A DNA stretch of 64,000 bases from an archaeon (GCA_041653195.1 JBAZFU010000002.1:23639-87638), one strand, 5' to 3'; counted from the stretch's first letter, positions 13,784 through 63,874 are shown. Translations and numbers: made by a program. The notes: generated by a model from the letters alone, not told the origin.

Positions 13784-14509
13784 TTAATTTTCCGGAACGA
13801 TTTTTATCTGCTTACTGGTAGATTTTTCGAAATCTCCAACCTTAACATTAAAATTAATCGTAACGAACCCGGAACTAGTTGGCGTGAGAGTAGTAGTTAT
13901 GGGCTTGCATTCTTTCGGAGAGAGGGAAAAAACATTCGGAAACAACGCTTCCTTAAAATAATTCCCGCTAACCGATTCGGTCCACTCGATTGAAGGCAGT
14001 GCTTCCTCAGAACGATTGCAAATATTTTTCGTCAGCAAATATTCTTGACCAACTACCATCTGCCACTCCGTATTCGCCTGACCGGAAAGAGAAACCTCCG
14101 CCTTAAGAGGATCAACCACCTCAGATTTCAAAGTAAACTCTTCAATTGAAATCGTTTTATTGAAGGGCGCACGCACCTCAACAAAATAAGTCAAATCCGA
14201 AGGAATATCAAGAATCTGCGAAAAATATGCTACCTGTCCCGCATTCAAATCCTCCACGGGAAAAGACTGCGAATTGCCGCTGGTCATAACCACAACAGTT
14301 ATTCCTCTGACAAAATGTTTCGAATAATTTAAAATTTCCATTTTCAATTCGGCTTTGGTTCCCTTAACGCCCATTTCAGGATTTTTTACGCTCAACGCTT
14401 CCTGAAAACTTGCCCAATACACCATTACAAAAAAAATCAGGGCAAAGGCCACGAGAAAAAAAGAATAAACGGTTTTTCTGCTCACCGTCGGCGCCTTCTC
14501 GGATTCCAT
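13784..14509 (-). CDS. Membrane-anchored beta-rich hypothetical protein
   Basis: 241 aa. N-terminal TM VYSFFLVAFALIFFVMVYWASF followed by alternating-pattern beta-sandwich-like sequence. Confidence 0.55.
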   Translation of the reverse strand: MESEKAPTVSRKTVYSFFLVAFALIFFVMVYWASFQEALSVKNPEMGVKGTKAELKMEILNYSKHFVRGITVVVMTSGNSQSFPVEDLNAGQVAYFSQILDIPSDLTYFVEVRAPFNKTISIEEFTLKSEVVDPLKAEVSLSGQANTEWQMVVGQEYLLTKNICNRSEEALPSIEWTESVSGNYFKEALFPNVFSLSPKECKPITTTLTPTSSGFVTINFNVKVGDFEKSTSKQIKIVPEN

Positions 14510-14581
14510 GCCAATAATAACTGCTTTTCAATATTTAATATTTAGCTCGGACAAAAAAAGCAGAAACGCGCGAAAAAACAC

Positions 14582-15262
14582 TTATTCTATTTCAACAGAG
14601 TAATCGAAAAACTGGGAAATTTTTGAAACAATATAATTACTTCCGAAAAAATAATACGCGTTCACGGAATTTTTTCGCAAAATTTTGGTAATTGAATGAA
14701 TGAACTTGAAAATATTTTCGTCGGAATGGAAAAGCCGAAGAATATCAAGAGAATCGAAAACAAACACTGCTTTGGAATAGGCTTCCACAAGCTCGATAAT
14801 TTTGATTTCAAGCCCCGGCAAATCCGCCAGGGAATCGGCGAAAAAAATATTCTCCTTATCTTTTTCACAAAAAATATTTTTAGTAACGCAGTCAACCAAA
14901 ACAACTTTTTTTGTTTCAATGCCCGCGTTTTCAAGTTCCTGAATCATCACCCTGTAGTTGCGCGCAGTGAGAACCATTACTGGAATTTTTCCGGAAGAAA
15001 TAATTTTTTTTGCAGTAACAATCAGCGTGTCACCCAAAAGTTCCGGACGAGTCTTTATAACCGCCTGAAAACGCGAAGCTTTCCCCGGAAGCTGCTTGTC
15101 AATTTCAAGCGAAATTTTGGACTGGCCCGAAAGCTCGCTCTGAAGCTTTTCAAACTGTTTAAGTTGGGCATCAATTTCCACCGAAATGTTTTTCTGATCA
15201 GATAAAAGCTTCTGAAGCTTTTCAAACTGTTTCGGACCGGCGGAATAATCAACTTCAGGCAT
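14582..15262 (-). CDS. KaiC/RecA-fold-like protein lacking a P-loop, with N-terminal 24-aa tandem repeat
   Basis: Walker-B-like hydrophobic strand ending in Asp (KAVFVFDSLDIL), but I find no GxxxxGK[ST]. The layout parallels 29305..29907. The exact 22-nt repeat tctgaagcttttcaaactgttt occurs at 15139-15160 and 15211-15232 (72-nt period), encoding KQFEKLQ twice. Confidence 0.45.
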   Translation of the reverse strand: MPEVDYSAGPKQFEKLQKLLSDQKNISVEIDAQLKQFEKLQSELSGQSKISLEIDKQLPGKASRFQAVIKTRPELLGDTLIVTAKKIISSGKIPVMVLTARNYRVMIQELENAGIETKKVVLVDCVTKNIFCEKDKENIFFADSLADLPGLEIKIIELVEAYSKAVFVFDSLDILRLFHSDENIFKFIHSITKILRKNSVNAYYFFGSNYIVSKISQFFDYSVEIE

Positions 15263-17850: not shown

Positions 17851-18744
17851 ATGGAAACTAAGATACCAATGATGCTTTTTTCACCGGAAAAAATAAATTC
17901 ATTCAAAAGCAATTATCTTTGGGTCGGAAACCTGCTATCAAAATTAATTTTTTCTTTGAAATACGATTTGGAAAAAGCAGAAATCGGGATAGATATTGAA
18001 AGATATAGTCTTGCCGCATTCCTATCCGCAATATTTTACGCAGTAGTTTTTTTCTTCGTCGGATCGGCATTCGGATTAATACTAAGCAAACAATTCGGGC
18101 CAACGGTTTATTCAACAATGACAATATTCGGAATATTCGGATTCGCAGGATTCTTCCTTTACTTTATGCTGTACCCAAAAATGAGGGCAACACAACTAGC
18201 GAGCGCAATCGACAGCGAATTGGTTTTCGCGATAAGAAGCATGCTCATTCAGTTAAGTTCGGGAGTAAGTTTGTTTGAAACGGTAAAAAGCATTTCACGG
18301 GCAAATTACGGAGTAGTTTCAAACGAATTCAAATACGTTGTTTCGGACATAAGCTCGGGCCAAAGAGAAACCGAAGCGTTGGAAAGACTCGCATTCAAAA
18401 CACAATCAGAGGTTTTGAGGAGGACTGTTTGGCAATTAATAACAACAATAAAAAGCGGCGGCTCACTCGTATCATCACTAGGCGTTCAGGTCGACTCGCT
18501 AATAGCAAGCCAAATGGAATCAATAAAAAATTACGCCGCGGAACTGAATCTCTGGATACTACTGTATCTCATAGTGGCCGCAGCACTTCCCTCACTCGGA
18601 GTGGCTTTTCTAGTAGTAATTTCCTCGCTTAGCGGCGGAGGAGTCGGAAAAGAAATAATAATTTCAATAGTACTGCTTTCGGTTTCAGTACAAATAGGAA
18701 TGATAATGTTTGTTAGGACAAGAACTCCTAAAATAGTGAGATAA
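17851..18744 (+). CDS. Type IV filament platform protein, T2SS-F domain (TadB/ArlJ N-half-like)
   Basis: 297 aa, polytopic. ELVFAIRSMLIQLSSGVSLFETVKSISRANYGVVSNEFKYVVSDISSGQRETEALERLA fits the T2SS-F domain pattern. Confidence 0.8.
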   Translation: METKIPMMLFSPEKINSFKSNYLWVGNLLSKLIFSLKYDLEKAEIGIDIERYSLAAFLSAIFYAVVFFFVGSAFGLILSKQFGPTVYSTMTIFGIFGFAGFFLYFMLYPKMRATQLASAIDSELVFAIRSMLIQLSSGVSLFETVKSISRANYGVVSNEFKYVVSDISSGQRETEALERLAFKTQSEVLRRTVWQLITTIKSGGSLVSSLGVQVDSLIASQMESIKNYAAELNLWILLYLIVAAALPSLGVAFLVVISSLSGGGVGKEIIISIVLLSVSVQIGMIMFVRTRTPKIVR

Positions 18745-18765
18745 AAAAATAAAAACGGTGAAAAA

Positions 18766-19809
18766 ATGATTAGAGACCCTGCATTGATATTTTCCTCGTT
18801 CATTCCGAAAAGTTTTCTTGAAAACTATGTAAAAAAATGGCTTAATTATGCGGGCTCGAAAGCCGATGCGAGAGAATGGGCCGGCGCGAGACTAATACTT
18901 TCCATATTACTCGGATTAATAGGATTTCTTCTGCCAAGCACAATACTCCCTGCCATAGATGTGTTGTACAACTCACACTTCGCGTTCGCAACCCCTAACC
19001 TCTTAATACAAATCGGGCTATTCTTCGTATTTTTCGCAGCAGTTTGGATCGCTTCAATACTTCACATAGCCTACACCATCGACGGACGAAAAAAAATGGT
19101 TGAAGCAGTGCTCCCCGATTTCCTTTTGCTGGTTTCAAGCAATTTGAAAAGCGGAATGACGCCCTTCTCCGCGTTTAGAGCCGCGGTAAGACCAGAGTTT
19201 GGACCGCTCAGCGAAGAAATAAAATTTGCGACACAAAAAAGCCTCGGAATAGAATCATTTTCAAAAGCGCTTCAACACATCGCAGACAGAATCGATTCAA
19301 ACGTGCTGAGAGAAACCTCAAAATTCTTTGCACAGGCGCTCGTTTCCGGCGGCCACCTATCAGAATTAATTGAGTCAAGTGCAAAAGACATCAAGCAAAC
19401 CGAAAGACTGAAAAAAGAACTGGTTTCATCCACAAGAATGTACATAATATTCATTATTTTTGTCGTCCTAATAGCTTCGCCCATGCTTCTCGCAGTAAGC
19501 GTCCAATTCCTCAACATCATGTCCTCAATACAAACACAAAACGGAGGACTGTCACAGGTGAGCGGAGCCGCTGCGGCACAAATAGGATTTGCGGGCGGCG
19601 GTGTAACAATTGAGCCCGATTTCATGAAAACTATCGCCTTCGCACTTCTCATATGCGACTCCATACTCGCAAGCATGTTCATCGGAATAGTCGGCGGAGA
19701 CAAAATAATAACCGGACTTAAATACTCGCCACTGCTTCTCATCGGAAGTATAGGCGTGTTCCTGGTAATGGTCAACATAATCGGTTCTGTGCTAGGCGCA
19801 TTTGTTTAA
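18766..19809 (+). CDS. Type IV filament platform protein, T2SS-F domain (TadC/ArlJ C-half-like)
   Basis: 347 aa, polytopic. LPDFLLLVSSNLKSGMTPFSAFRAAVRPEFGPLSEEIKFATQKSLGIESFSKALQHIA fits the T2SS-F domain pattern. Confidence 0.8.
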   Translation: MIRDPALIFSSFIPKSFLENYVKKWLNYAGSKADAREWAGARLILSILLGLIGFLLPSTILPAIDVLYNSHFAFATPNLLIQIGLFFVFFAAVWIASILHIAYTIDGRKKMVEAVLPDFLLLVSSNLKSGMTPFSAFRAAVRPEFGPLSEEIKFATQKSLGIESFSKALQHIADRIDSNVLRETSKFFAQALVSGGHLSELIESSAKDIKQTERLKKELVSSTRMYIIFIIFVVLIASPMLLAVSVQFLNIMSSIQTQNGGLSQVSGAAAAQIGFAGGGVTIEPDFMKTIAFALLICDSILASMFIGIVGGDKIITGLKYSPLLLIGSIGVFLVMVNIIGSVLGAFV

Positions 19810-19928: not shown

Positions 19929-20417
19929 GTGATGGTTTTGATTCAAGAAAAGAATGCACAAGGCACAATAGAATACCTGATAGTTCTCGCAATAATCGTA
20001 GTAATAGGCCTGATAGTAGTAACACTTTTACTTCAATTTACAGATGCCGGAAGGGGACTACGACAAAACGACTCGGAAATAAAATGGAGAAGCGCGACAC
20101 CTTTTGCAATAGTTAACCATGTTCAAAGCGACCGCAATCTGACAGTGGTTCTGAAAAACAATACCGCCTCGTCAATAAACTTCGTGAAACTCTGCGTCGG
20201 CGGAAACAATGTTGACTGCAACTCGGAAGCACGCCTGAACGTGGCACCAAACGCGACAATAAACGTAATAGTGCGCGACCTCAATTATACCGCTGCATGT
20301 ACCGGCGGCGCATCATACAGTTTCGCAAAAGCCGGAATATTCATAGACTACAATAATTCTGACATAGCATCACACACTCAGCCCGGAGCGGCAGACCTAA
20401 TAGGAACCTGCACATAA
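19929..20417 (+). CDS. Archaeal type IV pilin (class III signal peptide); candidate major pilin
   Basis: N-terminus MMVLIQEKNA|QGTIEYLIVLAIIVVIGLIVVTLLLQF: short basic leader, A|Q junction, Glu at +5, then ~20 hydrophobic residues. The 162-aa size fits a structural pilin. GTG at 19929, ATG at 19932. Confidence 0.8.
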   Translation: MMVLIQEKNAQGTIEYLIVLAIIVVIGLIVVTLLLQFTDAGRGLRQNDSEIKWRSATPFAIVNHVQSDRNLTVVLKNNTASSINFVKLCVGGNNVDCNSEARLNVAPNATINVIVRDLNYTAACTGGASYSFAKAGIFIDYNNSDIASHTQPGAADLIGTCT

Positions 20418-20477: not shown

Positions 20478-21335
20478 TTAGCCGGAAATTTTTATTAAAC
20501 TGTTTGAATCAAATCCGTTTCCGGAATAAGCCAAAATAGAATCAAAAAAAATTGGAAGATTATTTGGATAAGAAGACGGGGAATAGGAAGCGAAAATCGA
20601 ATAATTAAAACTGCGAAGCGAATTCGCATTAATATCTACTGAAGAATTAACTCCTCCGATTTGCCCAACAATAATGTACGCGTTTTCATCTCCCTGATAA
20701 ACTATTGCAAGTTTGTTAAGAACACTTGAATTAACCGAAGTTGAAACGGAAAAAGAATTCACATCATCCGTATAATTTATTCTAACAGGAATTGTTCCTG
20801 AAGGGCCAGAAACGGGATTCACCCACTCAAATCGGTTAAGGTCCGAAGCAGAGGCATCAATATTAATATCCAAAGAATTTAGCGACGCCCCGTTCTTCGG
20901 ATAAATTATCGCACTACTATTCGAATAATCAAAGTCATAACTCAAAATGCTTCCCACTGAAAGTTCGGCCTTACCATCTGCCAGCGAAGAAAGGTCTATT
21001 GACTTTACCCCCGAAGTTCTTTCAAAAAAAGTCCGATAAAGGAAAGAATTGTAATCCACAATAGCGGTAGAAACGCCAAAGCCGCGCGGAACCACGCCCG
21101 AAACAAGCAAATTCAAATCCGAATTATAATCCGTCCTAATTGCAAACCCTAAAATTTTTTGCAAATCCGTTCCGATATCGTCGTTCAAAAAAGGCTGATT
21201 GATGAGCTTTGAAGAAAAAATTATTCCCTGCTCGCGAAAAGAATTATTATTCACATATTGCTGCGAATAAAAAACAAGGGTTGAAACAAAAAGAATTACA
21301 GAAATTGTAAACAAATAACCGCGCGAAGACATCAC
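20478..21335 (-). CDS. Pilin-like protein (minor-pilin candidate, no +5 Glu)
   Basis: N-terminus MMSSRG|YLFTISVILFVSTLVFYSQ, followed by Asn/Ser-rich beta-type sequence. It is the last gene of the pilin operon and overlaps the upstream gene by 4 nt. Confidence 0.6.
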   Translation of the reverse strand: MMSSRGYLFTISVILFVSTLVFYSQQYVNNNSFREQGIIFSSKLINQPFLNDDIGTDLQKILGFAIRTDYNSDLNLLVSGVVPRGFGVSTAIVDYNSFLYRTFFERTSGVKSIDLSSLADGKAELSVGSILSYDFDYSNSSAIIYPKNGASLNSLDINIDASASDLNRFEWVNPVSGPSGTIPVRINYTDDVNSFSVSTSVNSSVLNKLAIVYQGDENAYIIVGQIGGVNSSVDINANSLRSFNYSIFASYSPSSYPNNLPIFFDSILAYSGNGFDSNSLIKISG

Positions 21336-21757
21336 TTAGTCCACCCCGAAACCCTTGCAATCAAAAAGTTTGCATCAGCACCATCAACCAGCACAAAAGA
21401 TCTTTCCACGACAACCAGGTTTGAAAAATTTTTTTGACAACCCGCTTTAAGCGCATGAACCAGCGGAACATCAAGATTTTCATCATTAAAAACAGCAACG
21501 TCAAAACAATACGCGAAAGGAGAATTATTAAGCGAAGAAAGAATCAAATCGGATGAGCGCTGCTTAACCGAATTTTCAAGAGCGCCGGATTTTTCAAGAA
21601 CAATCGCTTCATCCATTGAGAGCTGCTTAAGGTCAACAGAATTCCAAGCCGCTACAGAAATTTGTGAAAGATAAAAAAAAGCCATCAAAATCAAAAGCAT
21701 TGAAAGCGTAAGACTCAGGAATGCATCAAGCGAAATCAAAAAGCCGTCACTTCGCAT
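21332..21757 (-). CDS. Pilin-like protein (minor-pilin candidate)
   Basis: N-terminus MRSDG|FLISLDAFLSLTLSMLLILMAFFYLSQ (Gly junction, Asp at +6). It overlaps both neighbouring genes (11 nt and 4 nt). Confidence 0.6.
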   Translation of the reverse strand: MRSDGFLISLDAFLSLTLSMLLILMAFFYLSQISVAAWNSVDLKQLSMDEAIVLEKSGALENSVKQRSSDLILSSLNNSPFAYCFDVAVFNDENLDVPLVHALKAGCQKNFSNLVVVERSFVLVDGADANFLIARVSGWTK

Positions 21758-22295
21758 AAGAAAACACGCCCCTCAAAACAGATTGCCTGCCACCGTAATA
21801 CACCACGCGTTCATAAATCAAAGTATAATCCGCATTTTCATTAATAAAACCGGCTTCGTTAAAATAATCTCCGTTCGAATCAACCATGCTTAACTGAAAA
21901 TCATACCTTGCAATTCCAAGCTTTTCCTTTGCCAAAGAATAATCGGGACCATTCAAATATCCCGCCAACTTTTCAAACTTTCGCGAATCAACAACCCCCT
22001 TAGAAGAAACAATCCCAAAAATATTTACATCAGTTATGCTTCCGTATTCCCAATTCGAAGGTTCGCCCGATGAACCGAGCAAAACACTCATTACAGGATG
22101 CGCAAACTCTTCCACATTTTTTTTAACATCCAAATCGGCAGTTTGAAAAAAAATTTGCTGCGAAGCCGCGAAAAAAAATACCAACCCCATAATAAAAACG
22201 GCAGAAGCAAGCATCAAGTCCGGAAAAAAAAACTGGCCGCGCTCATTCGAAAAGAAACTCTTTGAAAAAAACTTTTTTCGCAAAAACTTTTTCAT
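21747..22295 (-). CDS. Pilin-like protein (minor-pilin candidate)
   Basis: N-terminus ...SNERG|QFFFPDLMLASAVFIMGLVFFFAAS: RG|Q junction, acidic residue at +6, hydrophobic helix. Confidence 0.6.
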   Translation of the reverse strand: MKKFLRKKFFSKSFFSNERGQFFFPDLMLASAVFIMGLVFFFAASQQIFFQTADLDVKKNVEEFAHPVMSVLLGSSGEPSNWEYGSITDVNIFGIVSSKGVVDSRKFEKLAGYLNGPDYSLAKEKLGIARYDFQLSMVDSNGDYFNEAGFINENADYTLIYERVVYYGGRQSVLRGVFSYAK

Positions 22296-22336: not shown

Positions 22337-24430
22337 TCAGCCTGACTGATCCACCTTCCACATAAACATATCATAGCTTCCGGCAGAGGCAAGACTTGCC
22401 GCATCAAAAGCAACTGTTGACGAGAAGGTTCCGCAAATATAAGATTCGTTTTGCGAATCAATTGCTATCCCCATTCCAAAATCAAATCCTGCCCCCCCGG
22501 TGTTCTCGACACGAAGCCAGTTTCCATTAGGGTCAATGCTTGCAAGGAAAGCATCACGAACACTGCTTACTACAAAACTTGTTGTCCCAAAATAAGCCGT
22601 TCCAAGAACATACCCCGTCAAATACGCATTGCCATCTGTTCCAATCGCAATATCACTCGCACCCTCAAAATTAGAACCATTAACCGTATCGCTGCCCGCC
22701 TGCTTCGCCCACAACCAACTTCCGAGCGAATCAAGCTTCACGACAAATATTTCGCTGTTCCCAGAAACATTCAAATCAATGTTACCAAAAAAAGCGTCGC
22801 CGTCAAAACGACCCGCAACATAAACATTATGCGAAGAATCAGCAGCTACGCCATAACCATAAGTATGAACTTCCTGATCCGGTACGCCAGCATTCTTCGC
22901 CCACAACCAGTTCCCATCAGAACCAATTTTAGCAACAAACATATCAAAATAATTTCCAATAGCATTTCTATCAAGAACAGTGCTTCCAAATGTTGCAGTC
23001 GCACTTCTAAAATAACCGGTTACAAAAATGTTTCCATTAGATTCAACAAAAATATCTTTTCCATAATCATAGCTTGTACCGCCGGCTTTGTTAACCCAAA
23101 CCCAATTCCCGTCAGGATTAATTTTGCCGACAAAAATTTCATCCACTCCAGAAGTTGTCAAAGCAATCGCATCAAAAGAAATTGTTGTCCTGTAATAACC
23201 TGTAACATAAGCATTATCATCGGAACCAACAGTTATTCCATACCCTGAATCAATTGAAGTGCTTCCGACCATAACCGCCCAAAGCCAATTTCCATCAGTA
23301 TCAAGTTTTGCAACAAAAATATCCGGACCGGCGCTTATTGAATTCAAATTAAAATTTCCAAAAGAAGCGTTGCCCTGAAACTGTCCTGTAATGTAAACAT
23401 TCCCTTCAGAATCAACCGCAACACTTTGCCCAGCGTCATAATATGACGTAACTGCAGAATCGCTTCCTGCCCTCTTCGCCCACAACCAGTTCCCGTCCGG
23501 ACCGGCTTTTGCAACAACAATATCCGCATAACCGTTACACTCAAGCGAAATGCTTCCAAAATTTGCGTTACCCAAAATGTAACCCGTTACATAAGAATTG
23601 CCCGCAGAATCAACCGCAACGCCCGTTGAATAATCTGCGGCTGTGCCCCCCGCTTTGTTAGCGAAATAAACCGGAAGCGAATAAGTCAAAGTTCTCGGAG
23701 AACCGCTTGAACCCTCATTGCCGTACTCGTCCGTGCAATTAACATCCCACACATAGGTTCCGGCGGAAGTGAACGAATAATTCGCAAATTCAGCGAAAGG
23801 CGCGGAATCCGCAGAAACCTTCGAAACCGCGTTAATTATTAATTCACAACTTTCAATAGAAGAATCATCCGTAACAGTATAAGAAAAATCTACAACCCCG
23901 TCCGAATCGGTTGTACCGTTTTCCGGCAAACCAAGGTATATTACCGGCGGAGTCGTATCTTCTTCAGGCGGAACGGGCTCTTCCTCTTCCGGAACTTCTG
24001 AAGAATAATTTACAACAACTTTATCCCCGCTTTTTGTGAAAAAAATTTCGCCGTTCAAATCCCCGACAAAAAAATCAACATTCTTCGGAATTATCGGCGC
24101 GTCAACAAAACTATTCGCATTAAACCAAACAATCACACTGCCCGAACCGCTTTCAACATAGTAACCCTGCGCGGCGTAATAAAAAGAATCACTGAAAGAA
24201 ATATTTCCATCAGACAAATAAACCGCGTTTATATTGCGGGCGAGCCTGAAAGCGGTTTCCTGCGCCCCGCCTTGCGCAGCATAATCAGTGTTTATCTGCG
24301 ACCTGCTCTGAAAAATCATTAATCCGAAAAGAAAAACCAGCGAAATTATTACGGCAGACATTATGAACTCAATACTTATTTGCCCCGCACTTGAAAAAAA
24401 ATATTTTCGAAAAAATTTTTTCAACACCAT
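22337..24430 (-). CDS. Large pilin-like adhesin: class III signal peptide + pilin core + Ig-like segment + ~7-blade SBBP-type beta-propeller
   Basis: N-terminus ...FFSSAG|QISIEFIMSAVIISLVFLFGLMIF. The C-terminal two thirds contain ~7 repeats of the pattern DGNWLWAK.AG(G/S)....G..(V/I)A.D..GN.Y(V/I)TG.F......FG (for example PDGNWLWAKRAGSDS, TDGNWLWAVMVGSTS, PDGNWVWVNKAGGTS, SDGNWLWAKNAGVPD, SLGSWLWAKQAGSDT, PNGNWLRVENTGGAG). Confidence 0.8.
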   Translation of the reverse strand: MVLKKFFRKYFFSSAGQISIEFIMSAVIISLVFLFGLMIFQSRSQINTDYAAQGGAQETAFRLARNINAVYLSDGNISFSDSFYYAAQGYYVESGSGSVIVWFNANSFVDAPIIPKNVDFFVGDLNGEIFFTKSGDKVVVNYSSEVPEEEEPVPPEEDTTPPVIYLGLPENGTTDSDGVVDFSYTVTDDSSIESCELIINAVSKVSADSAPFAEFANYSFTSAGTYVWDVNCTDEYGNEGSSGSPRTLTYSLPVYFANKAGGTAADYSTGVAVDSAGNSYVTGYILGNANFGSISLECNGYADIVVAKAGPDGNWLWAKRAGSDSAVTSYYDAGQSVAVDSEGNVYITGQFQGNASFGNFNLNSISAGPDIFVAKLDTDGNWLWAVMVGSTSIDSGYGITVGSDDNAYVTGYYRTTISFDAIALTTSGVDEIFVGKINPDGNWVWVNKAGGTSYDYGKDIFVESNGNIFVTGYFRSATATFGSTVLDRNAIGNYFDMFVAKIGSDGNWLWAKNAGVPDQEVHTYGYGVAADSSHNVYVAGRFDGDAFFGNIDLNVSGNSEIFVVKLDSLGSWLWAKQAGSDTVNGSNFEGASDIAIGTDGNAYLTGYVLGTAYFGTTSFVVSSVRDAFLASIDPNGNWLRVENTGGAGFDFGMGIAIDSQNESYICGTFSSTVAFDAASLASAGSYDMFMWKVDQSG

Positions 24431-25488
24431 CAGCTAACCACCATCGATAAATTAGCCCTCGCAGTAAAACCTGAAGAACTCACTACAAGAAACCCCGAAT
24501 ATGCGCCCGGTGGAATAGAAGGATTTATTCTCAATAAAAGCTCTTCACAGGAACCGGAAGCTATTACGCCGGAAAATGTGACTGCCGAATAAGCTGCTAT
24601 GTTTCCGGAAACAATTGAATCCGAAGAAGAAAAATTCGTTGAAGAATTATTGCACACCAAAAATGATTCGCCTGAAGAAGTCGATTCAATTAGTTTCACA
24701 CTGGGGGAAATTACAAGTTCCTGCCCGGAAGAAACGCAAACCAAATCAATTGGCAGGCTCGTGTTCTCATCGCCTGAAAAAATAAGTTCTCCGGAATAGG
24801 CGCCGCTCGCATTCGAATCACATGAAAGCGAAATAGTAAAATCTGCTGATTCATCAATATCAAAAATCTTTTCTCCCGAAGGCGAAACTATTGCCGACGC
24901 ATCAGGATGCAAAAACTCCGTCGAAATCACATAAGGCACTTGAGCGCCGGAAATATTCTCTGCAGAAATAACCACTTCTTTTGAGGAACTTGAGGAAACT
25001 ATTTCTGCAATCCTATGCTGGGACAAAGAAAGCTTTGACGGAGAAATTGAAACGAAACCATCATAAACAGTTATAACAAACTGGTGAAGCCCCGTGTCAT
25101 CCGGCCATGAACCCCTGACCTCGACATTTGTTGTCCCGATAATATCGGAACCCGCAACATTTAACACAATCGTTTTACCGATGAACTCCGATTTGTTAAA
25201 GTCATAAGATTCCGGCAATTGCAAAATAAGTTTTTTTACAGTACCGGGACCGAGAAAATACGCATCATCAATTTCCCGCGAAAGAGATTCAATAAGATTT
25301 TTTCCTGATTGCTGCTGCAACAAAATTTGCGAACCCGAATAGGAATCCCAAATAAGAGCTGTAAAAATAAGCAAACCTGCCATTGCAGCCGCCAGAATCA
25401 TCATTGATTCAATGGAAGCCTGCGCACCCGAACCGCGACAACGCTTATTTCCCAAAAAATTTTTTCTGCAAACCAAAAAACACACCAA
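24430..25488 (-). CDS. Pilin-like protein: class III signal peptide + pilin core + beta-sandwich repeats
   Basis: N-terminus ...CRGSGA|QASIESMMILAAAMAGLLIFTALIW. The pilin core is alignable with those of the 697- and 1211-aa proteins (..IGKTIVLNVAGSDIIGTTNVEVRGSW versus ISGRTVLLKLAGGDALGTADVNILGSW). It shares a one-nucleotide overlap with the downstream gene. Confidence 0.75.
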   Translation of the reverse strand: MVCFLVCRKNFLGNKRCRGSGAQASIESMMILAAAMAGLLIFTALIWDSYSGSQILLQQQSGKNLIESLSREIDDAYFLGPGTVKKLILQLPESYDFNKSEFIGKTIVLNVAGSDIIGTTNVEVRGSWPDDTGLHQFVITVYDGFVSISPSKLSLSQHRIAEIVSSSSSKEVVISAENISGAQVPYVISTEFLHPDASAIVSPSGEKIFDIDESADFTISLSCDSNASGAYSGELIFSGDENTSLPIDLVCVSSGQELVISPSVKLIESTSSGESFLVCNNSSTNFSSSDSIVSGNIAAYSAVTFSGVIASGSCEELLLRINPSIPPGAYSGFLVVSSSGFTARANLSMVVS

Positions 25489-25563
25489 ATCAAGAAAACG
25501 ACAACCAAAATATAAGGGTTTTCCGGTTTAAAATTGTTTTCAGAAGAAAAACTGCAAAAAAAA

Positions 25564-28500
25564 TTAAGAAGAAACGACCGAAACATTAACATCTTTTAGA
25601 AACGCCCCTATCCAAAAAGTGCCCGCAGTATAACCTTCAAAAGTCGATAGCGGTCTGAAAAAAACGTCAAAGCCAAGATAGCGGGAATTACTTAATGAAC
25701 TAATATCAATACTCGAATTATTTTCTGCACCCGAAATATACTGATTACTTGTCTTCGTGCTACAAGCAGAATCGCTGCAGGAATAAACATTCAAATCCAA
25801 GCGAGAAGCGCCTTGACGGTACAAATCCATAACCTGCCGCTGATTCATGGCATAATTTGCCGCAAACATATTCTCAATTTTTCCGTCAAATTTCGCAGTA
25901 CCATTCTGCCCATAAAGCGTACGCTCTTCAGTCCTCTTGCCGATATAAGTTCCAATGCCCACATCATAATATATCAAGCCCGTGCCAACTGCACCTGTCC
26001 CGACAAGAAGCCCGTTAGAATAAATATTCACAGTCCCCTGATTCCTCACAACAACCACCTGTGTCCACTTATTTACATCAACAGCACCGGGCGCAGATGT
26101 CTTAACCACATTATCCATTATTCCTCCCGCGCCGAAAGTAATTATTCCTGCCGGAGTAATCCAAATCGCATAACCACCGTCCGTGCCCGCAATTTCATAT
26201 TTGTTATCAATAAGGCCATGCTCGCGCGCAGAAGTCGGATAAACCCACGCGCCAATCGTCAAATCTTTTCTAAAATTTATTCCCTGATTTAATTCAACAT
26301 GATCCCTGTTTTCAGCATCAAAACTATACGCTTGCGTACCCCATAGCCCGGTTGTTAACATAGCACCGCCCGCGCTACCATCATTGCCACCAACAGCACT
26401 ATCTTCCGCGTCTCCGTTGAAATGCCAAACAGAAACCAAATCCGGTTCATTTCCAACCAATTCTGCACCCTCACCAAAATTGTATCTTTCAGAAACTTCC
26501 GCCGCCGACAAAGCTTTGCCCCAAACCGCAACCTCTTCCAAAACACCGTTAAAATCCGCCTGTCCCCCTTGAGAGTAATCGGCACGCGCAGTCTTCCTGT
26601 GCCCGATGAATCTTCCTGAATCAAGCAATCTGGCCACAGTATCATAGTATAGAGTTCCCGCGCCAACAACTGCACTTGAATTTAAAACTCCGTTCACATA
26701 AAAATTAACATCCTTGCCGCCCCGCACAACCGCAATGTGAGACCACTCATTCAAATTAAAAGAATTCGAAGGAGAAGAAACAACCACATTGCTTAATATT
26801 CCGCCCGCGCCGAAAGTAATATTATTATCTGCAGAAAGCCAAACCGCGTAACCCCCGTCAGTTCCTTCTATCTCATAATAATTATCAAAAATTGAGTGTG
26901 TCCTCGCACTAATCGGATAAATCCAAGCCTCAATCGTCAGGTTATTTACATCAAGAGTATTGTTTACAGGAGCACTTAATTCCAAATATGAATTTATATC
27001 AGCACCAGCGTTAAAACTCGCGGCATTGGTGCTCCACAAACCAGTTTCATACGTTGTTGTACCAACCCAACTGCAATCATTGACTCCGTTCAAACTTGAA
27101 TCATTAACATCATTATTCATGCGCCAAAGAGCCACAGGATTCCCGCCCCAAGCAGCACTATCCCGCTTCAATTCATCCCCAAAATTGTAATCAAAATCTT
27201 TATTGATTTTTATCGCATTCCAATCAACATCCGCACCGGCATCAATAATATTTTCACTCACAAAATTTGAATTGACCCACTGATTATAATCTGCCAACAC
27301 TTCGGACGCGGACAATGCACGATCCCAAATTTTCACTTCATCAATATCCCCGCTAAAAAAATAAAGATTTCCCGCTGTCCACAATTGCTTACCCATGGTA
27401 AGCGGCTGGGCAGACTGGTCAAAACTGTTCACGACACCGGCATTCGTATCTGCAACATCACTCCTAACCCCGTTCACATAAATTGCCATTCCCGAACTCT
27501 TGAAAGTTCCATCCCACACCGCAACAACATGATTCCACTTTCCGGCGCTAATCGGGTTTACAGCAGTTTTTCTTGAAATATATACGCTTGTGGAACTGTC
27601 AAATAAATAAAATTGCAAAGTAGTGTCCGTAAAAAATCTGAAAAAAAATCCGTCTCTGTTAGCGGTTGTTGCGTTATTGCCGTCAAGGTTCGAAATTATT
27701 ACATCGCCCGTTGTTAGAGAATCCATGTTTACCCAAGCGCTTACTGTGAAACCGCCCGCCATGTTGTCATCAATAGTATTATTCAACTGAACAAAATCAG
27801 CTGTCCCGTTGAAACTATAAGAATTCGCGTCCCACAAACCCTGCGCAACAATTGGACTACTTACTGCTCCGCTGTTGCCCCTGCCGGAAAAATCAAAAGC
27901 ATCGCCATTAAACTTGTAATATGCAACAAGATTCGCATCACGCCATCTGTTTGAATCAGCAACTGAATTCAAATTCCAGTCCAACTCGCCCGTAGTGGCA
28001 ATCGATTTATCCGCAAACTTCTGAACCCAATTGGCAAAGTCATAATCCTGATTCAAATCAGAGAGATAAAAAGTAAGAGGCGTTTCCGAAACTGGCGGCT
28101 CGCTCTCACTAACCTCAATCGAAATCGATGCGGCCCCTGAATTTTTATCAGAATAAAGCGCAATAAAATTAGCGTCGTAGGTGCCTGCAGAAACTTCCGA
28201 CGGAACAGTCACCGAAACACTCACATCTAAACATTCAAAAGGACCAATGTTACTTATCGCAGTAAGCGAAAGCCAGGGCGCGGCATTCGCATCCGCACTG
28301 CCATCAACAGCCCAAGAAATTCCGCTTATCTCCGAACCATTATTGCTGCACAAAGCATACTGCGAAGAAACCGCGCTTCCGCCCGATTCCGCCGAAACGC
28401 TTTTTGCAGGCGGAAGAAGCGACAAAGAACTTGAGCTGGAAAAAATCTCTGCGGAAACAAAAACTTGTTTTGAAAAATTTTGGTCGGAAATTTCGCCAAC

Positions 28501-29199
28501 CACATCAACGATTCCTGAATAGTTTCCGAAAGCACTCTGTTCAATATCAAAATTCATCGAAACTTCTTTCATTCCTTGCGCAGGAACCGAAAAAAAGTCG
28601 TCGCCAGCATCAAGAGAAAGAGCAACCCCTGAACGATAAAAATTCGGAATGACCCAAAAAGTCGCTTCAGAATCAGAATTATTTCTCACAACAAATTTTT
28701 TTGAAATCGTGCGCCCTGCAGGAGAAGAAAAATAAATCGATTCGCTACTAATTTCAAAATCCCTGTAACTCAGCCGAACTGCATTCCCGTCATAATACAA
28801 GTAAGCATAATAAACATAGGAACCCTGCTTCCACGAACCCAAAATATTAACATCCGCAGTACCGAGCGCGTCACCGCCCGCAAGTTTCAACAAAACCGTG
28901 CGCCCGCTTATATTGCTATCAAGAAGATTTGCAGAAACAGGCACCTCTATCAAAATTTTTGTTTCCGAACCGATGCCCGAAGAATAAACCTCGTTGGCAG
29001 CATTCACAATTCTTTGAACAGTAGAATTTGCAGTATACACGTCCCTGAAATTTGTTGCCGAATTTATTTGAGAAGCATAAAAAACATAAATAAGCACAAT
29101 AACAATTGCGGCCGCACTCAAAACCATTGACAACTCGATAACCGCCTGCGCCCTATTCTCGTTCAACAAAGCCAAAAACCCGCCATTCAACGAATACAT
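25564..29199 (-). CDS. Giant pilin-like adhesin: class III signal peptide + pilin core + beta-sandwich repeats + three LamG/concanavalin-like lectin modules
   Basis: N-terminus ...LLNENRA|QAVIELSMVLSAAAIVIVLIYVFYASQ. There are three modules with the LamG_3-type pattern (L(V/A).(Y/W).(F/M)NGDA.D.S..GN.G...GLW...A..F......(V/L).L....TI.AW(V/I)...W.H(V/I)(A/V)VV......(I/F)YVNG...(L/I)(D/E)EV.(I/V)W..ALSA.EV). Modules 2 and 3 are close internal duplicates. Confidence 0.8.
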   Translation of the reverse strand: MYSLNGGFLALLNENRAQAVIELSMVLSAAAIVIVLIYVFYASQINSATNFRDVYTANSTVQRIVNAANEVYSSGIGSETKILIEVPVSANLLDSNISGRTVLLKLAGGDALGTADVNILGSWKQGSYVYYAYLYYDGNAVRLSYRDFEISSESIYFSSPAGRTISKKFVVRNNSDSEATFWVIPNFYRSGVALSLDAGDDFFSVPAQGMKEVSMNFDIEQSAFGNYSGIVDVVGEISDQNFSKQVFVSAEIFSSSSSLSLLPPAKSVSAESGGSAVSSQYALCSNNGSEISGISWAVDGSADANAAPWLSLTAISNIGPFECLDVSVSVTVPSEVSAGTYDANFIALYSDKNSGAASISIEVSESEPPVSETPLTFYLSDLNQDYDFANWVQKFADKSIATTGELDWNLNSVADSNRWRDANLVAYYKFNGDAFDFSGRGNSGAVSSPIVAQGLWDANSYSFNGTADFVQLNNTIDDNMAGGFTVSAWVNMDSLTTGDVIISNLDGNNATTANRDGFFFRFFTDTTLQFYLFDSSTSVYISRKTAVNPISAGKWNHVVAVWDGTFKSSGMAIYVNGVRSDVADTNAGVVNSFDQSAQPLTMGKQLWTAGNLYFFSGDIDEVKIWDRALSASEVLADYNQWVNSNFVSENIIDAGADVDWNAIKINKDFDYNFGDELKRDSAAWGGNPVALWRMNNDVNDSSLNGVNDCSWVGTTTYETGLWSTNAASFNAGADINSYLELSAPVNNTLDVNNLTIEAWIYPISARTHSIFDNYYEIEGTDGGYAVWLSADNNITFGAGGILSNVVVSSPSNSFNLNEWSHIAVVRGGKDVNFYVNGVLNSSAVVGAGTLYYDTVARLLDSGRFIGHRKTARADYSQGGQADFNGVLEEVAVWGKALSAAEVSERYNFGEGAELVGNEPDLVSVWHFNGDAEDSAVGGNDGSAGGAMLTTGLWGTQAYSFDAENRDHVELNQGINFRKDLTIGAWVYPTSAREHGLIDNKYEIAGTDGGYAIWITPAGIITFGAGGIMDNVVKTSAPGAVDVNKWTQVVVVRNQGTVNIYSNGLLVGTGAVGTGLIYYDVGIGTYIGKRTEERTLYGQNGTAKFDGKIENMFAANYAMNQRQVMDLYRQGASRLDLNVYSCSDSACSTKTSNQYISGAENNSSIDISSLSNSRYLGFDVFFRPLSTFEGYTAGTFWIGAFLKDVNVSVVSS

Positions 29200-29304
29200 A
29201 AAAGACGAACTAGTAATTAAAATTAATCAATTGAGTTTTTCTTCAAAAAAATGCTTTGAAAACCCGCGAAAAAGGTTTTTATTAACAAAACACGTTCCTT
29301 CTGA

Positions 29305-29907
29305 ATGCAAAATCTCGCTTTCCTAAAACCAATGCTGGCAGAAGCCGAGGAAAGAACAGCACTGGTAGAATTAAACAAAGACCAGTTAAAAGACGCCATG
29401 AAAACAATAGTAACACATTATGAAAAGAACCGAAGAAAAAAAGGAATAATAATTTCACTAAGCGCACCGATAGAACAAATTACCGAAGAAGACGATTTTT
29501 CAATGCTCGACAAGGAACAACTCATACTAATCGACATGTGCTCCGGAAAAAAAGGAAAAGCAACTGTAAACGGATTCAAAACATTCTTTATAGAAACGCC
29601 ATCAGACTTGACAAGTTTGAGAATAATACTCGAAAATCTCCTGCAAAAAAACGAAAACGAAAAAAATGAAAAAAAATTTGTTTTATTCGACTCTATAAGC
29701 GCGCTTTCAACATACGTCGAAAGAAAGGTTCTCGACAAGTTCATGTATTACTTAAACAACAAAATAAGTTTCGAAGGCGATACCGGAATATTTCTTTCAA
29801 TAAAAAATCCGAAAGTAGACGAAGATATTGAAATAATAAAACAATTCTGCTCCAAATTTTACGACTTTTCGGGCGTTGTTACAATGGAAGTAGAAAAAGC
29901 CGAATAA
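29305..29907 (+). CDS. KaiC/RecA-fold-like protein lacking a P-loop (paralogue of 14582..15262)
   Basis: 200 aa. The Walker-B-like strand KKFVLFDSISALSTYV and the overall strand/helix order resemble the core of the neighbouring KaiC-like ATPase. I find no GxxxxGK[ST] motif. Confidence 0.45.
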   Translation: MQNLAFLKPMLAEAEERTALVELNKDQLKDAMKTIVTHYEKNRRKKGIIISLSAPIEQITEEDDFSMLDKEQLILIDMCSGKKGKATVNGFKTFFIETPSDLTSLRIILENLLQKNENEKNEKKFVLFDSISALSTYVERKVLDKFMYYLNNKISFEGDTGIFLSIKNPKVDEDIEIIKQFCSKFYDFSGVVTMEVEKAE

Positions 29908-29920
29908 AACATTCACAAAT

Positions 29921-31012
29921 CTAAAAAATCTCTACGTCAGGATAAACCCTTATCCCGTTCTTCTCAAAATTTATTGCGCAAATCTTGTTAGTGTGGCGGG
30001 TTCCGCGCATTTTTAACACCTCAAGTGCATGAATCCTAATTCCCTTTTCCTCATCATGTTTATAGTAAAGAGAAATTATCGCATCAACAATAAAACCTAT
30101 GCCTCCTTCCTCGCCCTCAAGCTTTTCCGGCGACTCTTCCGAAATTATTAGGGAAGTAACATCCCACTTTTTCAAAGAATTAAAAAACTCAAGAGTTTTG
30201 TCGCGCTTCTCGTATTCGTCCTTAAACAGCAAACCGTAAACCGTTATCGAATCAACAACAACACGCTTCGCTCCGAGCTCGACAAGCGCGTCTCTTATGC
30301 CCGCACCACCCTCTTCCAAAATTTTTGTCATTTGATGCGGCTTGAAAAGCAAAAGGCGAAACTTTCCTTCCTTTTCGAGTTTCGCAAAATCCCACCCGAA
30401 TTGAAGCGCATGAGTGTAAAGCGACTCCCTGTCCTCGCTGAAAGAAATAAACATTCCGGGCTCATCATATTTCATTATCCCTTCATAAATAAACTGCAGA
30501 CCGAACAAAGTTTTTCCAGTGCCTGCCGAGCCGACAACAACCACTGTAGAATTTTTTTCAAATCCTCCTTCAATCAACTCGTCAAAACCGGTAATGCCCG
30601 TTCTTACCCTCTCAAAAGTTTCATGCCCCTCTTCATTTTTTCGCTCTCCGCTAAAAGAAGGTTTTTCCGAATCAAAATTATCCAATCTCACAGGGCGAAC
30701 AGAAAAATTTTCACGTTTCTTCGAATCAACATTCAAAGCACTATCAAAATTTCCGCTTTCTTTAATACTTTCAAACATTTTTATCTTATCATCAAAGCTC
30801 CCACTACTCGAATACGCGGATTTTGGGCTTTCTTTGAAAGAAACCTTCGATTTTTTTAGTTCCTGAATAGCATTATCAAGCGATCCCTTTGATGCTTCCA
30901 TTCTCGAAGTTCGAATATCAGTCCCTGTTCCCCTTAATTGCGCCATCTTTTCCTCAAGGAGCCTTTCCGCTTCGGACTTTTCTTCGTTCTCTTCATCAGC
31001 CATAAAAACCAT
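29921..31012 (-). CDS. KaiC/RadA-like ATPase (ArlH/FlaH-like) with ~130-aa disordered N-terminal extension
   Basis: RVRTGITGFDELIEGGFEKNSTVVVVGSAGTGKTLFGLQFIYEG (Walker A), KRVVVDSITVYG (Walker B) and ALEVLKMRGTRH, the typical KaiC-family single-domain pattern. Confidence 0.85.
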   Translation of the reverse strand: MVFMADEENEEKSEAERLLEEKMAQLRGTGTDIRTSRMEASKGSLDNAIQELKKSKVSFKESPKSAYSSSGSFDDKIKMFESIKESGNFDSALNVDSKKRENFSVRPVRLDNFDSEKPSFSGERKNEEGHETFERVRTGITGFDELIEGGFEKNSTVVVVGSAGTGKTLFGLQFIYEGIMKYDEPGMFISFSEDRESLYTHALQFGWDFAKLEKEGKFRLLLFKPHQMTKILEEGGAGIRDALVELGAKRVVVDSITVYGLLFKDEYEKRDKTLEFFNSLKKWDVTSLIISEESPEKLEGEEGGIGFIVDAIISLYYKHDEEKGIRIHALEVLKMRGTRHTNKICAINFEKNGIRVYPDVEIF

Positions 31013-38998: not shown

Positions 38999-39069
38999 TG
39001 AGGCTGGAGAGAATCGAACTCCCGTCAGAAGCTCCCAAAGCTCCGATCATACCACTAGACCACAGCCCC
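38999..39069 (-). tRNA. tRNA-Pro, anticodon UGG
   Basis: Hand-folded 71 nt: GGGGCTG-TG-GTCT-AGTGGTA-TGAT-C-GGAGC-TTTGGGA-GCTTC-TGAC-GGGAG-TTCGATT-CTCTC-CAGCCTC-A. The D stem has one U.U mismatch and the variable loop is 4 nt. It is followed by T-runs. Confidence 0.8.
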
Positions 39070-63774: not shown

Positions 63775-63801
63775 ATCTCTCACACCAATATTTTTGCCCA
63801 T

Positions 63802-63873: not shown

Positions 63874-63874
63874 T

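What the first reader, a model, noticed from the sequence alone, without database searches (positions are those of the whole stretch)
25564..29199. 1211-aa pilin fused to three LamG lectin modules, two of them a recent internal duplication
After the prepilin signal, pilin core and beta-sandwich repeats, the protein has three ~210-aa modules with the LamG/concanavalin-like pattern. Each starts at (A/P)NLVAYYKFNGDAFDFSGRGNSG, NPVALWRMNNDVNDSSLNGVNDC or PDLVSVWHFNGDAEDSAVGGNDG. Each ends at DEVKIWDRALSASEV, EEVAVWGKALSAAEV or a degenerate equivalent. Modules 2 and 3 are near-collinear copies (IEAWIYPISARTHSIFDNYYEIEGTDGGYAVWLS versus IGAWVYPTSAREHGLIDNKYEIAGTDGGYAIWIT). The similarity is also visible at DNA level with an offset of roughly 670 nt (around 26100 and 26770). 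A pilin subunit of this size with carbohydrate-binding-type domains is unusual. The module duplication suggests ongoing diversification of binding specificity.
Basis: partly seen in the sequence, partly recalled or inferred. Interest (0 to 1): 0.7.

Follow-up and report, generated by a model that had tools for sequence, protein, structure and literature searches.

The report
Archaeal pilin carrying three LamG modules
This gene encodes a large pilus subunit from an uncultivated DPANN-type archaeon that carries three lectin-like (LamG) modules, probably to stick the cell to a surface or host; this design is already known in bacteria, but this archaeal family is undescribed and swaps its sticky modules between neighbouring pilin genes.

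Summary
A 1211-aa ORF lies on the minus strand at 25564-29199. It has three Laminin_G_3 modules (Pfam E=1.5e-65). Modules 2 and 3 are each other's closest relatives, with a 161-nt DNA echo at a 678-nt offset. The duplication is lineage-specific but old, not recent: 44% aa identity, 55% nt identity, dS about 1.4.

The protein is an archaeal modular type IV pilin-like protein:
- a class III signal, RA|QAVIE, with Q+1 and E+5
- a 67-residue N-terminal helix and a beta-sheet
- two Ig-like sandwiches
- LamG, a conserved linker, two more LamG, and an unclassified ~80-aa C-terminal cap

It heads a six-gene operon of class-III-signal proteins. Beside it lie a small pilin, a split FlaJ/TadC platform and a FlaI/VirB11-type ATPase. 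The ProRS gene places the organism near Diapherotrites/Iainarchaeota.

In relatives the [LamG]n-cap cassette has 1-7 LamG copies. It sits on pilin A, on paralogous pilin B, or on both. The scaffold family has 515 representatives with varied cargo.

The most likely role is a pilus-presented adhesin. The ligand and a tip location are inferred, not shown. Bacterial modular pilins with PF13385 are common, so this is a new member of a known kind.

The parts
25564..29199 (-). Gene A: 1211-aa modular pilin-like protein (NCBI MFA5357517.1, annotated only as 'LamG domain-containing protein')
   Evidence: ORF. Exact match in the public collection.
29080..29199 (-). Class III signal: leader ending in RA, then Q(+1)AVIE(+5) and a hydrophobic stretch (aa 1-40)
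   Evidence: Q18 and E22 are invariant in orthologues. The motif [KR][GA]Q[TAS][ST][IV]E is present in 132 of 150 family representatives. The Pfam Class_IIIsignal model itself does not hit it.
28744..29199 (-). Pilin module: long N-terminal helix (aa 8-74) plus beta-sheet (aa 79-150)
   Evidence: AF2 model, mean pLDDT 76.5, with blocks of 85-95 in this region.
28441..28740 (-). Ig-like beta-sandwich 1 (aa 154-253)
   Evidence: AF2. Foldseek hits to ASH/PapD-like Ig tandems such as hydin-type, CEP192 SPD-2 and FimC.
28108..28425 (-). Ig-like beta-sandwich 2 (aa 259-364), with conserved Cys284 and Cys323
27937..28107 (-). Low-confidence spacer containing the conserved GELDW motif (aa 365-421)
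   Evidence: pLDDT below 50. The motif is conserved in cargo-bearing homologues.
27280..27936 (-). LamG module 1 (aa 422-640)
   Evidence: Pfam Laminin_G_3 best stretch 464-634. Custom HMM.
27142..27279 (-). Conserved linker motif (aa 641-686, ...DWNAIKINKDFDYNFGDE...). It occurs once per family protein and directly abuts the C-terminal cap in the shortest family members.
26476..27141 (-). LamG module 2 (aa 687-908)
25813..26445 (-). LamG module 3 (aa 919-1129), paralogue of module 2
25567..25812 (-). C-terminal cap (aa 1130-1211; RLDLNVYSCSDSAC...). Found only in this pilin family. No Pfam or PDB relative.
26782..26939 (-). DNA-level repeat copy in module 2 (72% over 161 nt to 26104-26261)
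26104..26261 (-). DNA-level repeat copy in module 3
24430..25488 (-). Gene B: 352-aa paralogous pilin scaffold (GA|QASIE). It has no cargo here but carries the LamG cassette in relatives.
22337..24430 (-). Gene C: pilin-like (AG|QISIE) fused to an SBBP beta-propeller. Orthologues are 134-150 aa with no cargo.
20478..22295 (-). Genes D, E, F (21747-22295, 21332-21757, 20478-21335): small pilin-like proteins with conserved G|Q/F/Y N-termini that lack Glu+5
19929..20417 (+). 162-aa small pilin (NA|QGTIE), candidate major subunit
   Evidence: Pfam Class_IIIsignal 17-20 bits, below the 23.7 cut-off. Orthologue in L001.
17851..19809 (+). Split platform protein: two FlaJ/TadC-like genes (17851-18744, 18766-19809)
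   Evidence: Orthologues carry PF00482 T2SSF. Weak ArlJ/FlaJ hits. Five TM segments each.
15392..17806 (+). Secretion/assembly ATPase of the FlaI/VirB11/TadA superfamily
   Evidence: NCBIfam FlaI E=8.5e-77, below the equivalog cut-off. Orthologue carries PF00437 T2SSE.
29305..31012 (.). KaiC-family ATPase (29921-31012, minus strand) and a small KaiC-like/DUF7504-like protein (29305-29907, plus strand). Both are conserved next to the operon.
   Evidence: KaiC association with archaeal T4P is described in PMC4858521.

Best explanation
Gene A encodes an archaeal modular type IV pilin-like protein. A class III signal peptidase, not encoded in this window, is inferred to cut after Arg-Ala. That would leave Gln+1 and Glu+5 at the head of a long hydrophobic helix. 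The helix would insert the protein into a filament, or a short pseudopilus, built by the adjacent ATPase and split platform from the small pilin. The rest of the protein projects outward. It consists of two Ig-like spacers, three LamG (concanavalin-A-like) modules and a family-specific C-terminal cap. It most likely acts as an adhesin for a glycan-rich surface, such as a host or partner cell envelope, a polysaccharide or a biofilm matrix. It probably works within a minor-pilin complex with the five other pilin-like proteins B-F of the operon.

Shown here:
- the domain architecture
- conservation of the signal motif
- the operon and its synteny
- the module 2/3 duplication
- variation in cassette copy number, and exchange of the cassette between the A and B scaffolds

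Inferred, not shown:
- processing by a peptidase
- incorporation into a filament, and a tip location
- glycan binding
For: Domains and signal:
- Laminin_G_3 in three stretches, E=1.5e-65. LamG fold hits to laminin LG4-5 and neurexin.
- The N-terminal motif is invariant in orthologues and present in 132 of 150 family representatives.
- AF2 gives a helix at aa 8-74, a beta-sheet, then two beta-sandwiches, pLDDT 76.5.

Locus:
- Six consecutive class-III-signal genes lie next to a small pilin, two T2SSF-type platform genes and a T2SSE-type ATPase.
- The locus is syntenic in at least four other archaeal MAGs.

Diversification:
- The cassette [LamG]n-linker-LamG(1-2)-cap sits on A (window, L003, L009), on B (L001 with 7 LamG, L004 with 5), or on both (L003).
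- Among representatives n ranges from 1 to 7.
- Caps on A- and B-borne cassettes are up to 62-70% identical, whereas the A and B cores are about 23% identical.
- The scaffold family has 515 representatives at E<=1e-3. Other cargoes include Ig domains, MG2, beta-propellers, RTX and FG-GAP.

Precedents:
- S. sanguinis PilC is a pilin plus Ig plus ConA-like lectin. It binds glycans and is modelled at the pilus tip (PMC9934059).
- PF13385-bearing modular pilins are frequent in bacteria (PMC8179133).
- Haloarchaeal TafC is a tip subunit with a LamG domain (PMC11821415).
Against: - The Pfam Class_IIIsignal model does not score the N-termini of A, B or C.
- No class III signal peptidase gene was found in the 64-kb window.
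- The AF2 model of the LamG2-LamG3-cap half is weak, pLDDT 60.8.
- Foldseek found Ig-type matches for the N-terminal model but no solved pilin.
- Laminin_G_3 is a broad fold family. Many members bind proteins or have no known ligand, so glycan binding is unproven.
- No expression, filament or localisation data exist for this uncultivated organism.
Confidence: 0.7

Rival explanations
1. It is a cell-surface-anchored adhesin or binding protein, not a filament subunit. The class III signal serves only for processing and for membrane or pseudopilus anchoring. This resembles the Sulfolobus bindosome proteins, or the 'functionalised TFF' binding proteins proposed for archaea.
For: Many archaeal class-III-signal proteins are substrate-binding proteins rather than fibre subunits (bioRxiv 10.64898/2026.04.22.720090). 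The 120-kDa extracellular part is very bulky for a repeating subunit. No filament data exist.
Against: The gene heads a conserved six-gene set of pilin-like proteins next to a small pilin and a dedicated ATPase and platform. That layout matches minor-pilin operons. No ABC transporter is linked to it in the operon.
Confidence: 0.2
2. The LamG array is mainly a spacer or stalk, or a protein-binding array as in neurexin and laminin LG domains. The specific ligand-binding element is the family-specific linker plus C-terminal cap.
For: The cap and linker are the only cargo elements present in every cassette. In the shortest forms (P0038, P0042, P0044, P0132) the cassette has one LamG and the linker directly abuts the cap. 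LamG number varies freely from 1 to 7. The cap is better conserved than the LamG modules: up to 62% identity with other cassettes for the window's cap (up to 70% between other caps), against about 30-40% for LamG modules between proteins.
Against: High conservation of the cap fits a structural or assembly role better than a variable ligand-binding role. The fast-diverging LamG modules look more like specificity determinants. The cap has no recognisable fold relative.
Confidence: 0.25
3. It is not a pilin at all. It would be an ordinary Sec-dependent, N-terminally anchored surface protein whose hydrophobic N-terminus resembles a class III signal by chance.
For: The Pfam Class_IIIsignal model gives no hit. 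No peptidase gene is nearby.
Against: The [KR][GA]Q..[IV]E motif is near-invariant across 132 of 150 diverse representatives. The same motif occurs in B, C and the small pilin of the same locus. Five of 57 scaffold relatives do hit PF04021. There is tight synteny with TFF machinery.
Confidence: 0.05

Closest known systems
Streptococcus sanguinis PilC (modular minor type IV pilin with Ig-like and ConA-like lectin modules; PMC9934059)
   Same: Order of parts: class III signal and pilin module, then an Ig-like fold, then a ConA/LamG-superfamily module. It is encoded in a pilus operon with other minor pilins, is modelled at the pilus tip, and has an adhesive role.
   Different: PilC is bacterial and monoderm, has a G|F-type signal and one lectin module, and is 53 kDa. 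Here the signal is archaeal Q+1/E+5. There are two Ig domains, three LamG of the PF13385 type, and an extra linker and cap. The protein is about 130 kDa. No sequence homology was detected outside the LamG fold.
Bacterial modular pilins carrying PF13385 (Laminin_G_3), frequent in CPR/Patescibacteria (survey in PMC8179133)
   Same: The same extra-module family is grafted on a pilin. They occur in ultra-small, probably host-associated organisms.
   Different: Those were found through the bacterial IPR012902 N-methylation motif. Archaea were not covered by that survey. The scaffold here (A/B core) has no Pfam or PDB relative.
Archaeal Epd-like / 'System 1' type IV filament loci, and their DUF2341/PilY-like adhesins (PMC4858521; bioRxiv 10.64898/2026.04.22.720090)
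   Same: Split platform gene, a FlaI-like ATPase, many pilin-like genes, associated KaiC ATPases, and large ConA-clan adhesins predicted at the tip. The QxSxE-type signal is shared.
   Different: No DUF2341 hit here. The adhesin module is fused directly to a pilin scaffold. No EppA-type peptidase is in the locus. The lineage is Diapherotrites-like DPANN rather than methanogens.
Haloarchaeal Tat-fimbria subunit TafC (PMC11821415)
   Same: An archaeal filament subunit with a C-terminal laminin-G-like domain, modelled at the filament end and proposed to be adhesive. NCBIfam TafC hits LamG module 1 at E=3.6e-13.
   Different: The score of 49 bits is far below the 410-bit cut-off. Tafi are Tat-secreted donor-strand fibres, not type IV filaments. 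Only the LamG part aligns.

Membership tests
Laminin_G_3 / concanavalin-A-like (Pfam PF13385) | Profile score above the Pfam gathering threshold | tested here: met
   220.4 bits against 27.6, E=1.5e-65, three stretches.
Laminin_G_3 / concanavalin-A-like (Pfam PF13385) | LamG-type beta-sandwich fold | tested here: met
   Foldseek top hits are laminin alpha2 LG4-5, neurexin LNS and neurotoxin HcN, E about 1e-12. The model is of low confidence, pLDDT 60.8.
Laminin_G_3 / concanavalin-A-like (Pfam PF13385) | Carbohydrate (lectin) binding | not testable with these tools
   No binding data exist. The fold family includes non-lectin members.
Archaeal type IV pilin (class III signal peptide protein) | Short charged leader ending in [KR][GA], followed by Q/A at +1 and a hydrophobic helix of about 20 aa (QxSxExxxL-like) | tested here: met
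   NENRA|QAVIELSMVLSAAAIVIV. Q18 and E22 are invariant in orthologues. The consensus holds over 132 of 150 representatives.
Archaeal type IV pilin (class III signal peptide protein) | Match to the Pfam Class_IIIsignal model (PF04021) | tested here: not met
   No hit for the N-termini of A, B or C even at E<=10. The small pilin scores 19.8 bits, below the 23.7 cut-off. Five of 57 scaffold relatives do hit.
Archaeal type IV pilin (class III signal peptide protein) | Pilin fold: extended N-terminal alpha-helix packed on a beta-sheet | tested here: met
   AF2 gives helix 8-74 and strands 79-150 with pLDDT 85-95. No solved pilin was retrieved by Foldseek, which was dominated by the Ig domains.
Archaeal type IV pilin (class III signal peptide protein) | Genomic linkage to a TFF ATPase and platform protein | tested here: met
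   ATPase at 15392-17806 and split platform at 17851-19809. Synteny in L001, L003, L004 and L009.
Archaeal type IV pilin (class III signal peptide protein) | Cleavage by a class III signal peptidase and assembly into a filament | not testable with these tools
   No peptidase gene was seen in the window. This needs experiment.
Modular pilins (sensu Raynaud et al. 2021) | N-terminal pilin module joined to one or more extra functional modules not specific to pilus biology | tested here: met
   Pilin module, then two Ig, three LamG and a cap. A core-only form of 363 aa exists in L001, showing that the cargo is separable.
TafC family fimbrial protein (NCBIfam NF052521) | Score above the equivalog cut-off over the whole protein | tested here: not met
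   49.4 bits against 410. Only aa 459-640 align to the LamG part of the profile.
PilY1-like / DUF2341 archaeal T4P adhesins (PF10102) | DUF2341 domain | tested here: not met
   Not among the Pfam hits at E<=1. It is present only in distant bacterial-type LamG hits P0006 and P0012.
Epd-like / System 1 archaeal TFF | Platform protein split into two genes, plus a dedicated ATPase and multiple pilins | tested here: met
   Definition taken from bioRxiv 10.64898/2026.04.22.720090.
Epd-like / System 1 archaeal TFF | Dedicated EppA/EpdA-type signal peptidase in the locus, and phylogenetic placement of the ATPase | not tested
   No peptidase was found in the window. No ATPase phylogeny was made.

The most novel reading that the evidence does not exclude
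The A-F operon may encode an archaeal counterpart of the bacterial minor-pilin tip complex. Its adhesive 'warhead' would be an exchangeable cassette, [LamG]n inserted into a split linker-plus-cap domain. The cassette would be shuffled by recombination between two paralogous pilin scaffolds (A and B) and replaced outright between close relatives. That would give DPANN archaea a rapidly evolving host- or surface-recognition device, analogous to phage tail-fibre or bacterial adhesin cassette switching. The Glu+5-less subunits D, E and F would cap or prime the filament, as GspK/PilX-type minor pilins do.
Probability: 0.3. Interest if true: 0.65.

Novelty: new member of a known kind. Interest (0 to 1): 0.45.

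Why it matters
How DPANN archaea recognise and hold on to hosts or surfaces is largely unknown, and none of the relatives of this organism found here comes from a cultivated strain: all are metagenome assemblies. This locus gives a concrete, testable candidate: a pilus-presented multi-LamG adhesin.

The scaffold family is uncharacterised, with 515 representative clusters and no Pfam or PDB relative. Its cargo varies widely and is exchanged between neighbouring pilin genes.

It extends the 'modular pilin' principle, established in bacteria, to archaea. It also provides natural variants for binding and structural studies: 1-7 LamG copies, cargo-less cores, and alternative cargoes.

Tried and rejected
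- Self-BLASTP of the whole protein returned only the identity hit. Modules had to be cut out and compared pairwise.
- The word-indexed homologue search with the A-core profile found only four extra proteins. The exhaustive HMM search was needed to see the 515-member family.
- Foldseek of the N-terminal model was dominated by Ig/ASH tandem proteins and gave no pilin match, so it neither supports nor refutes the pilin fold.
- AF2 of aa 630-1211 had pLDDT 60.8 and no coordinates were available. The idea that the linker and cap fold together could therefore not be tested.
- The metagenome scan for close relatives found nothing. dN/dS between close orthologues and fine dating of the duplication were not possible.
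- The closest genome's contigs end inside gene A.
- N-glycosylation sequons are not enriched: 18 observed against 16.6 +/- 3.5 expected.
- No class III signal peptidase was found among the multi-TM ORFs of the window.
- A glucanase or enzyme reading of the ConA-like fold was rejected. Only non-catalytic LamG, pentraxin and sialidase-N-terminal lectin models hit.
- A bacterial origin was rejected. The context is archaeal: thermosome, tRNA-intron endonuclease, KaiC, and ProRS nearest to Diapherotrites.
Full report
**1. The observation**

The window contains one long ORF at 25564-29199. It lies on the minus strand, starts with ATG and encodes 1211 aa.

Pfam finds Laminin_G_3 (PF13385) in three stretches. 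The score is 220 bits against a cut-off of 27.6, E=1.5e-65. Weaker overlapping hits go to related ConA-clan models: Laminin_G_2, the Sialidase N-terminal lectin and Pentaxin.

I place the three modules at aa 422-640, 687-908 and 919-1129.
- Modules 2 and 3 share 42% identity over 219 aa (E=4e-53).
- Module 1 shares 28% identity with module 2 and 23% with module 3.

At DNA level only one segment is still recognisable. It is 161 nt at 72% identity, window 26782-26939 vs 26104-26261, an offset of 678 nt.

**2. Age of the duplication**

I extracted 32 LamG modules from this protein and eight relatives. Window modules 2 and 3 are reciprocal best hits by a wide margin: 159 bits, against 69 bits or less to any other module. 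The duplication therefore postdates the split from every sampled relative.

It is not recent. Over 210 aligned codons the two modules share 43.8% aa and 54.6% nt identity. Third-position identity is 43%, against 31% expected by chance. The NG86 estimates are dN=0.57 and dS=1.40, which is close to saturation.

A conserved linker of about 45 aa (aa 641-686, DWNAIKINKDFDYNFGDE) occurs exactly once in each family protein. It is followed by one LamG in most relatives and by two here. The unit that duplicated is therefore the post-linker, terminal LamG.

**3. What the protein is**

*Signal.* The N-terminus reads NENRA|QAVIELSMVLSAAAIVIV. In orthologues Q18 and E22 are invariant. Among the 150 best representatives of the wider family, 132 carry [KR][GA]-Q-[TAS]-[ST]-[IV]-E followed by a hydrophobic run. 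From established knowledge, this is the archaeal class III (prepilin-type) signal with Gln+1 and Glu+5, like the QxSxExxxL motif of EppA substrates.

*N-terminal fold.* An AF2 model of aa 1-421 was built from an 8-sequence alignment and has mean pLDDT 76.5. It shows:
- a 67-residue helix (aa 8-74) packed against a beta-sheet (aa 79-150), which is the pilin 'lollipop'
- two beta-sandwiches (aa 154-253 and 259-364)
- a disordered spacer

Foldseek matches the sandwiches to ASH/PapD-like Ig tandems.

*C-terminal half.* The model of this half is weak (pLDDT 60.8). Its best PDB matches are still laminin LG4-5 pairs, neurexin LNS domains and clostridial neurotoxin receptor-binding domains.

*Cap.* The last 80 or so residues (RLDLNVYSCSDSAC...) form a cap found only in this family. 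Together with the linker it has no Pfam or PDB relative.

*Caveats.* The Pfam Class_IIIsignal model does not score A, B or C. No signal peptidase gene is in the window.

**4. Genomic context**

A is the first of six tightly packed minus-strand genes, A to F, spanning 29199 down to 20478. Each begins with a pilin-like N-terminus.
- B has GA|QASIE and C has AG|QISIE.
- D, E and F have conserved G|QFF.PD, G|F(L/I)I..D and G|(Y/F)LFTIS heads that lack Glu+5.

Convergent with the operon, on the plus strand, are:
- a 162-aa small pilin (NA|QGTIE), which scores sub-threshold on Class_IIIsignal
- two FlaJ/TadC-type platform genes
- a FlaI/VirB11-type ATPase

KaiC-family ATPases flank the locus. Such ATPases are known to accompany archaeal T4P systems (PMC4858521).

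The split platform and many pilins match the 'System 1'/Epd-like layout reported for methanogens and DPANN (bioRxiv 10.64898/2026.04.22.720090).

The organism is an uncultivated archaeon. The gene is NCBI MFA5357517.1, named 'LamG domain-containing protein [archaeon]', on a 152,933-bp contig. Its ProRS is 88% identical to one from a 'Candidatus Diapherotrites archaeon'. It is 64-70% identical to those of Ca. Iainarchaeum. The lineage assignment is an inference from these names.

**5. Comparative picture**

The same locus is found in L001/L006 (a 788-kb contig), L003/L007, L004 and L009, and in part in L005, L008 and L010. HMMs built from each part give the following layout.

| Locus | Pilin A | Pilin B | Pilin C |
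|---|---|---|---|
| Window | core + 3 LamG + cap | core only | core + SBBP beta-propeller |
| L001 | core only (363 aa) | core + 7 LamG + cap (2092 aa) | core only |
| L003 | core + 3 LamG + cap | core + 5 LamG + cap | core only |
| L004 | core only | core + 5 LamG + cap | core only |
| L009 | core + 2 LamG + cap | core only | core only |

The A and B cores are distant paralogues, about 23% identical. Caps from A-borne and B-borne cassettes intermingle. The window's cap is closest to P0113 (B type, 62%) and P0003 (B type, 59%). The cassette has therefore moved between scaffolds.

In four short proteins the linker directly abuts the cap, with the single LamG lying upstream of the linker. This suggests, as an inference, that in the other forms LamG modules are inserted into a linker-plus-cap unit.

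An exhaustive profile search with the A core found 515 representative clusters at E<=1e-3 and 222 at E<=1e-10.
- Many are core-only, at about 340-370 aa.
- 28 of the top 150 carry the C-terminal cap; 27 of these also have 1-7 recognisable LamG modules.
- Others carry Ig domains, MG2, WD40/PQQ/SBBP propellers, RTX, FG-GAP or unrecognised cargo.

In the closest genome (ProRS 88% identical) gene A is only 57% identical over aa 9-253. After that point it switches to a different, Cys/Asp-rich cargo before the contig ends. The pilin therefore evolves much faster than housekeeping genes, and its cargo is replaced even between close relatives.

**6. Mechanism**

The best-supported reading has four steps.
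- The protein is processed by a class III signal peptidase.
- Its N-terminal helix docks it into a filament or pseudopilus assembled by the adjacent machinery.
- It probably joins B-F as a minor-pilin complex.
- The Ig, LamG and cap array is then displayed as an adhesin.

Three precedents support this by analogy. S. sanguinis PilC is a pilin plus Ig plus ConA-like lectin that binds glycans and is modelled at the tip (PMC9934059). PF13385-bearing modular pilins are abundant in bacteria (PMC8179133). Haloarchaeal TafC is a tip subunit with a LamG domain (PMC11821415).

Architecture, signal conservation, synteny and cassette dynamics are shown here. Processing, filament incorporation, tip location and glycan binding are inferred.

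The rival readings are:
- a bindosome-like surface anchor rather than a fibre subunit
- a LamG array that acts as a spacer, with the cap as the binding element
- a chance resemblance of a Sec anchor, which is unlikely

**7. Novelty and verdict**

[quoted passage not shown] ConA-clan adhesins in archaeal T4P loci were predicted in 2016 (PMC4858521). My library searches found no paper linking archaeal class III pilins with LamG. The public record calls this protein only a 'LamG domain-containing protein'.

I rate it a new member of a known kind. The added points of interest are:
- an uncharacterised scaffold family and cap
- 1-7-fold LamG arrays
- exchange of the cassette between adjacent paralogous pilins

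Interest: 0.45.

Noticed in passing
window 22337-24430 (minus strand): The third pilin-like gene (C) is fused to an SBBP beta-propeller (Pfam E=1e-22; 697 aa). Its positional orthologues in all four syntenic relatives are bare 134-150-aa pilins. It is a second, lineage-specific cargo in the same operon.
   Followed up: partly
window 20478-22295 (minus strand); L001 16790-18694; L003 19880-21815: Pilin-like proteins D, E and F have conserved N-termini (G|QFF.PD, G|F[LI]I..D, G|[YF]LFTIS) without Glu at +5. Bacterial tip minor pilins such as GspK are similar. This is a possible hint of a priming or tip complex.
   Followed up: partly
L005, L008, L010, L011, L012 and the 2.5-kb contig of P0001: At least six independent assemblies break inside gene A. 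This may reflect repeats or strain-level heterogeneity in this gene.
   Followed up: no
L011 18804-19712: In the closest relative (ProRS 88% identical) gene A diverges after about aa 250 into a Cys/Asp-rich sequence (CYDGVDNDCDGLTDC...) instead of Ig2 plus LamG. The contig ends there, so the cargo is unknown.
   Followed up: partly
window 12128-15262 (minus strand) and 29305-31012: Four small genes upstream of the ATPase are conserved next to the pilus locus in relatives (L003 836-4081). They are 242, 216, 241 and 226 aa; one is weakly CARDB-like and one DUF7504/KaiC-like. Two KaiC-family genes are also conserved there. They are possible regulators or accessory parts.
   Followed up: partly
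window 8154-8230, 38999-39069, 63597-63669, 63801-63875: Four tRNA genes: Ile-TAT, Pro-TGG, Gln-TTG and Ile-GAT. No rRNA or other Rfam family is present in the window.
   Followed up: yes
window 29200-29260 and 25489-25563: There are AT-rich TATA-like stretches upstream of A (ttaattttaatta) and of B (ttatatttt). A T-run follows the stop codon of A. A may therefore be transcribed separately from B-F.
   Followed up: no
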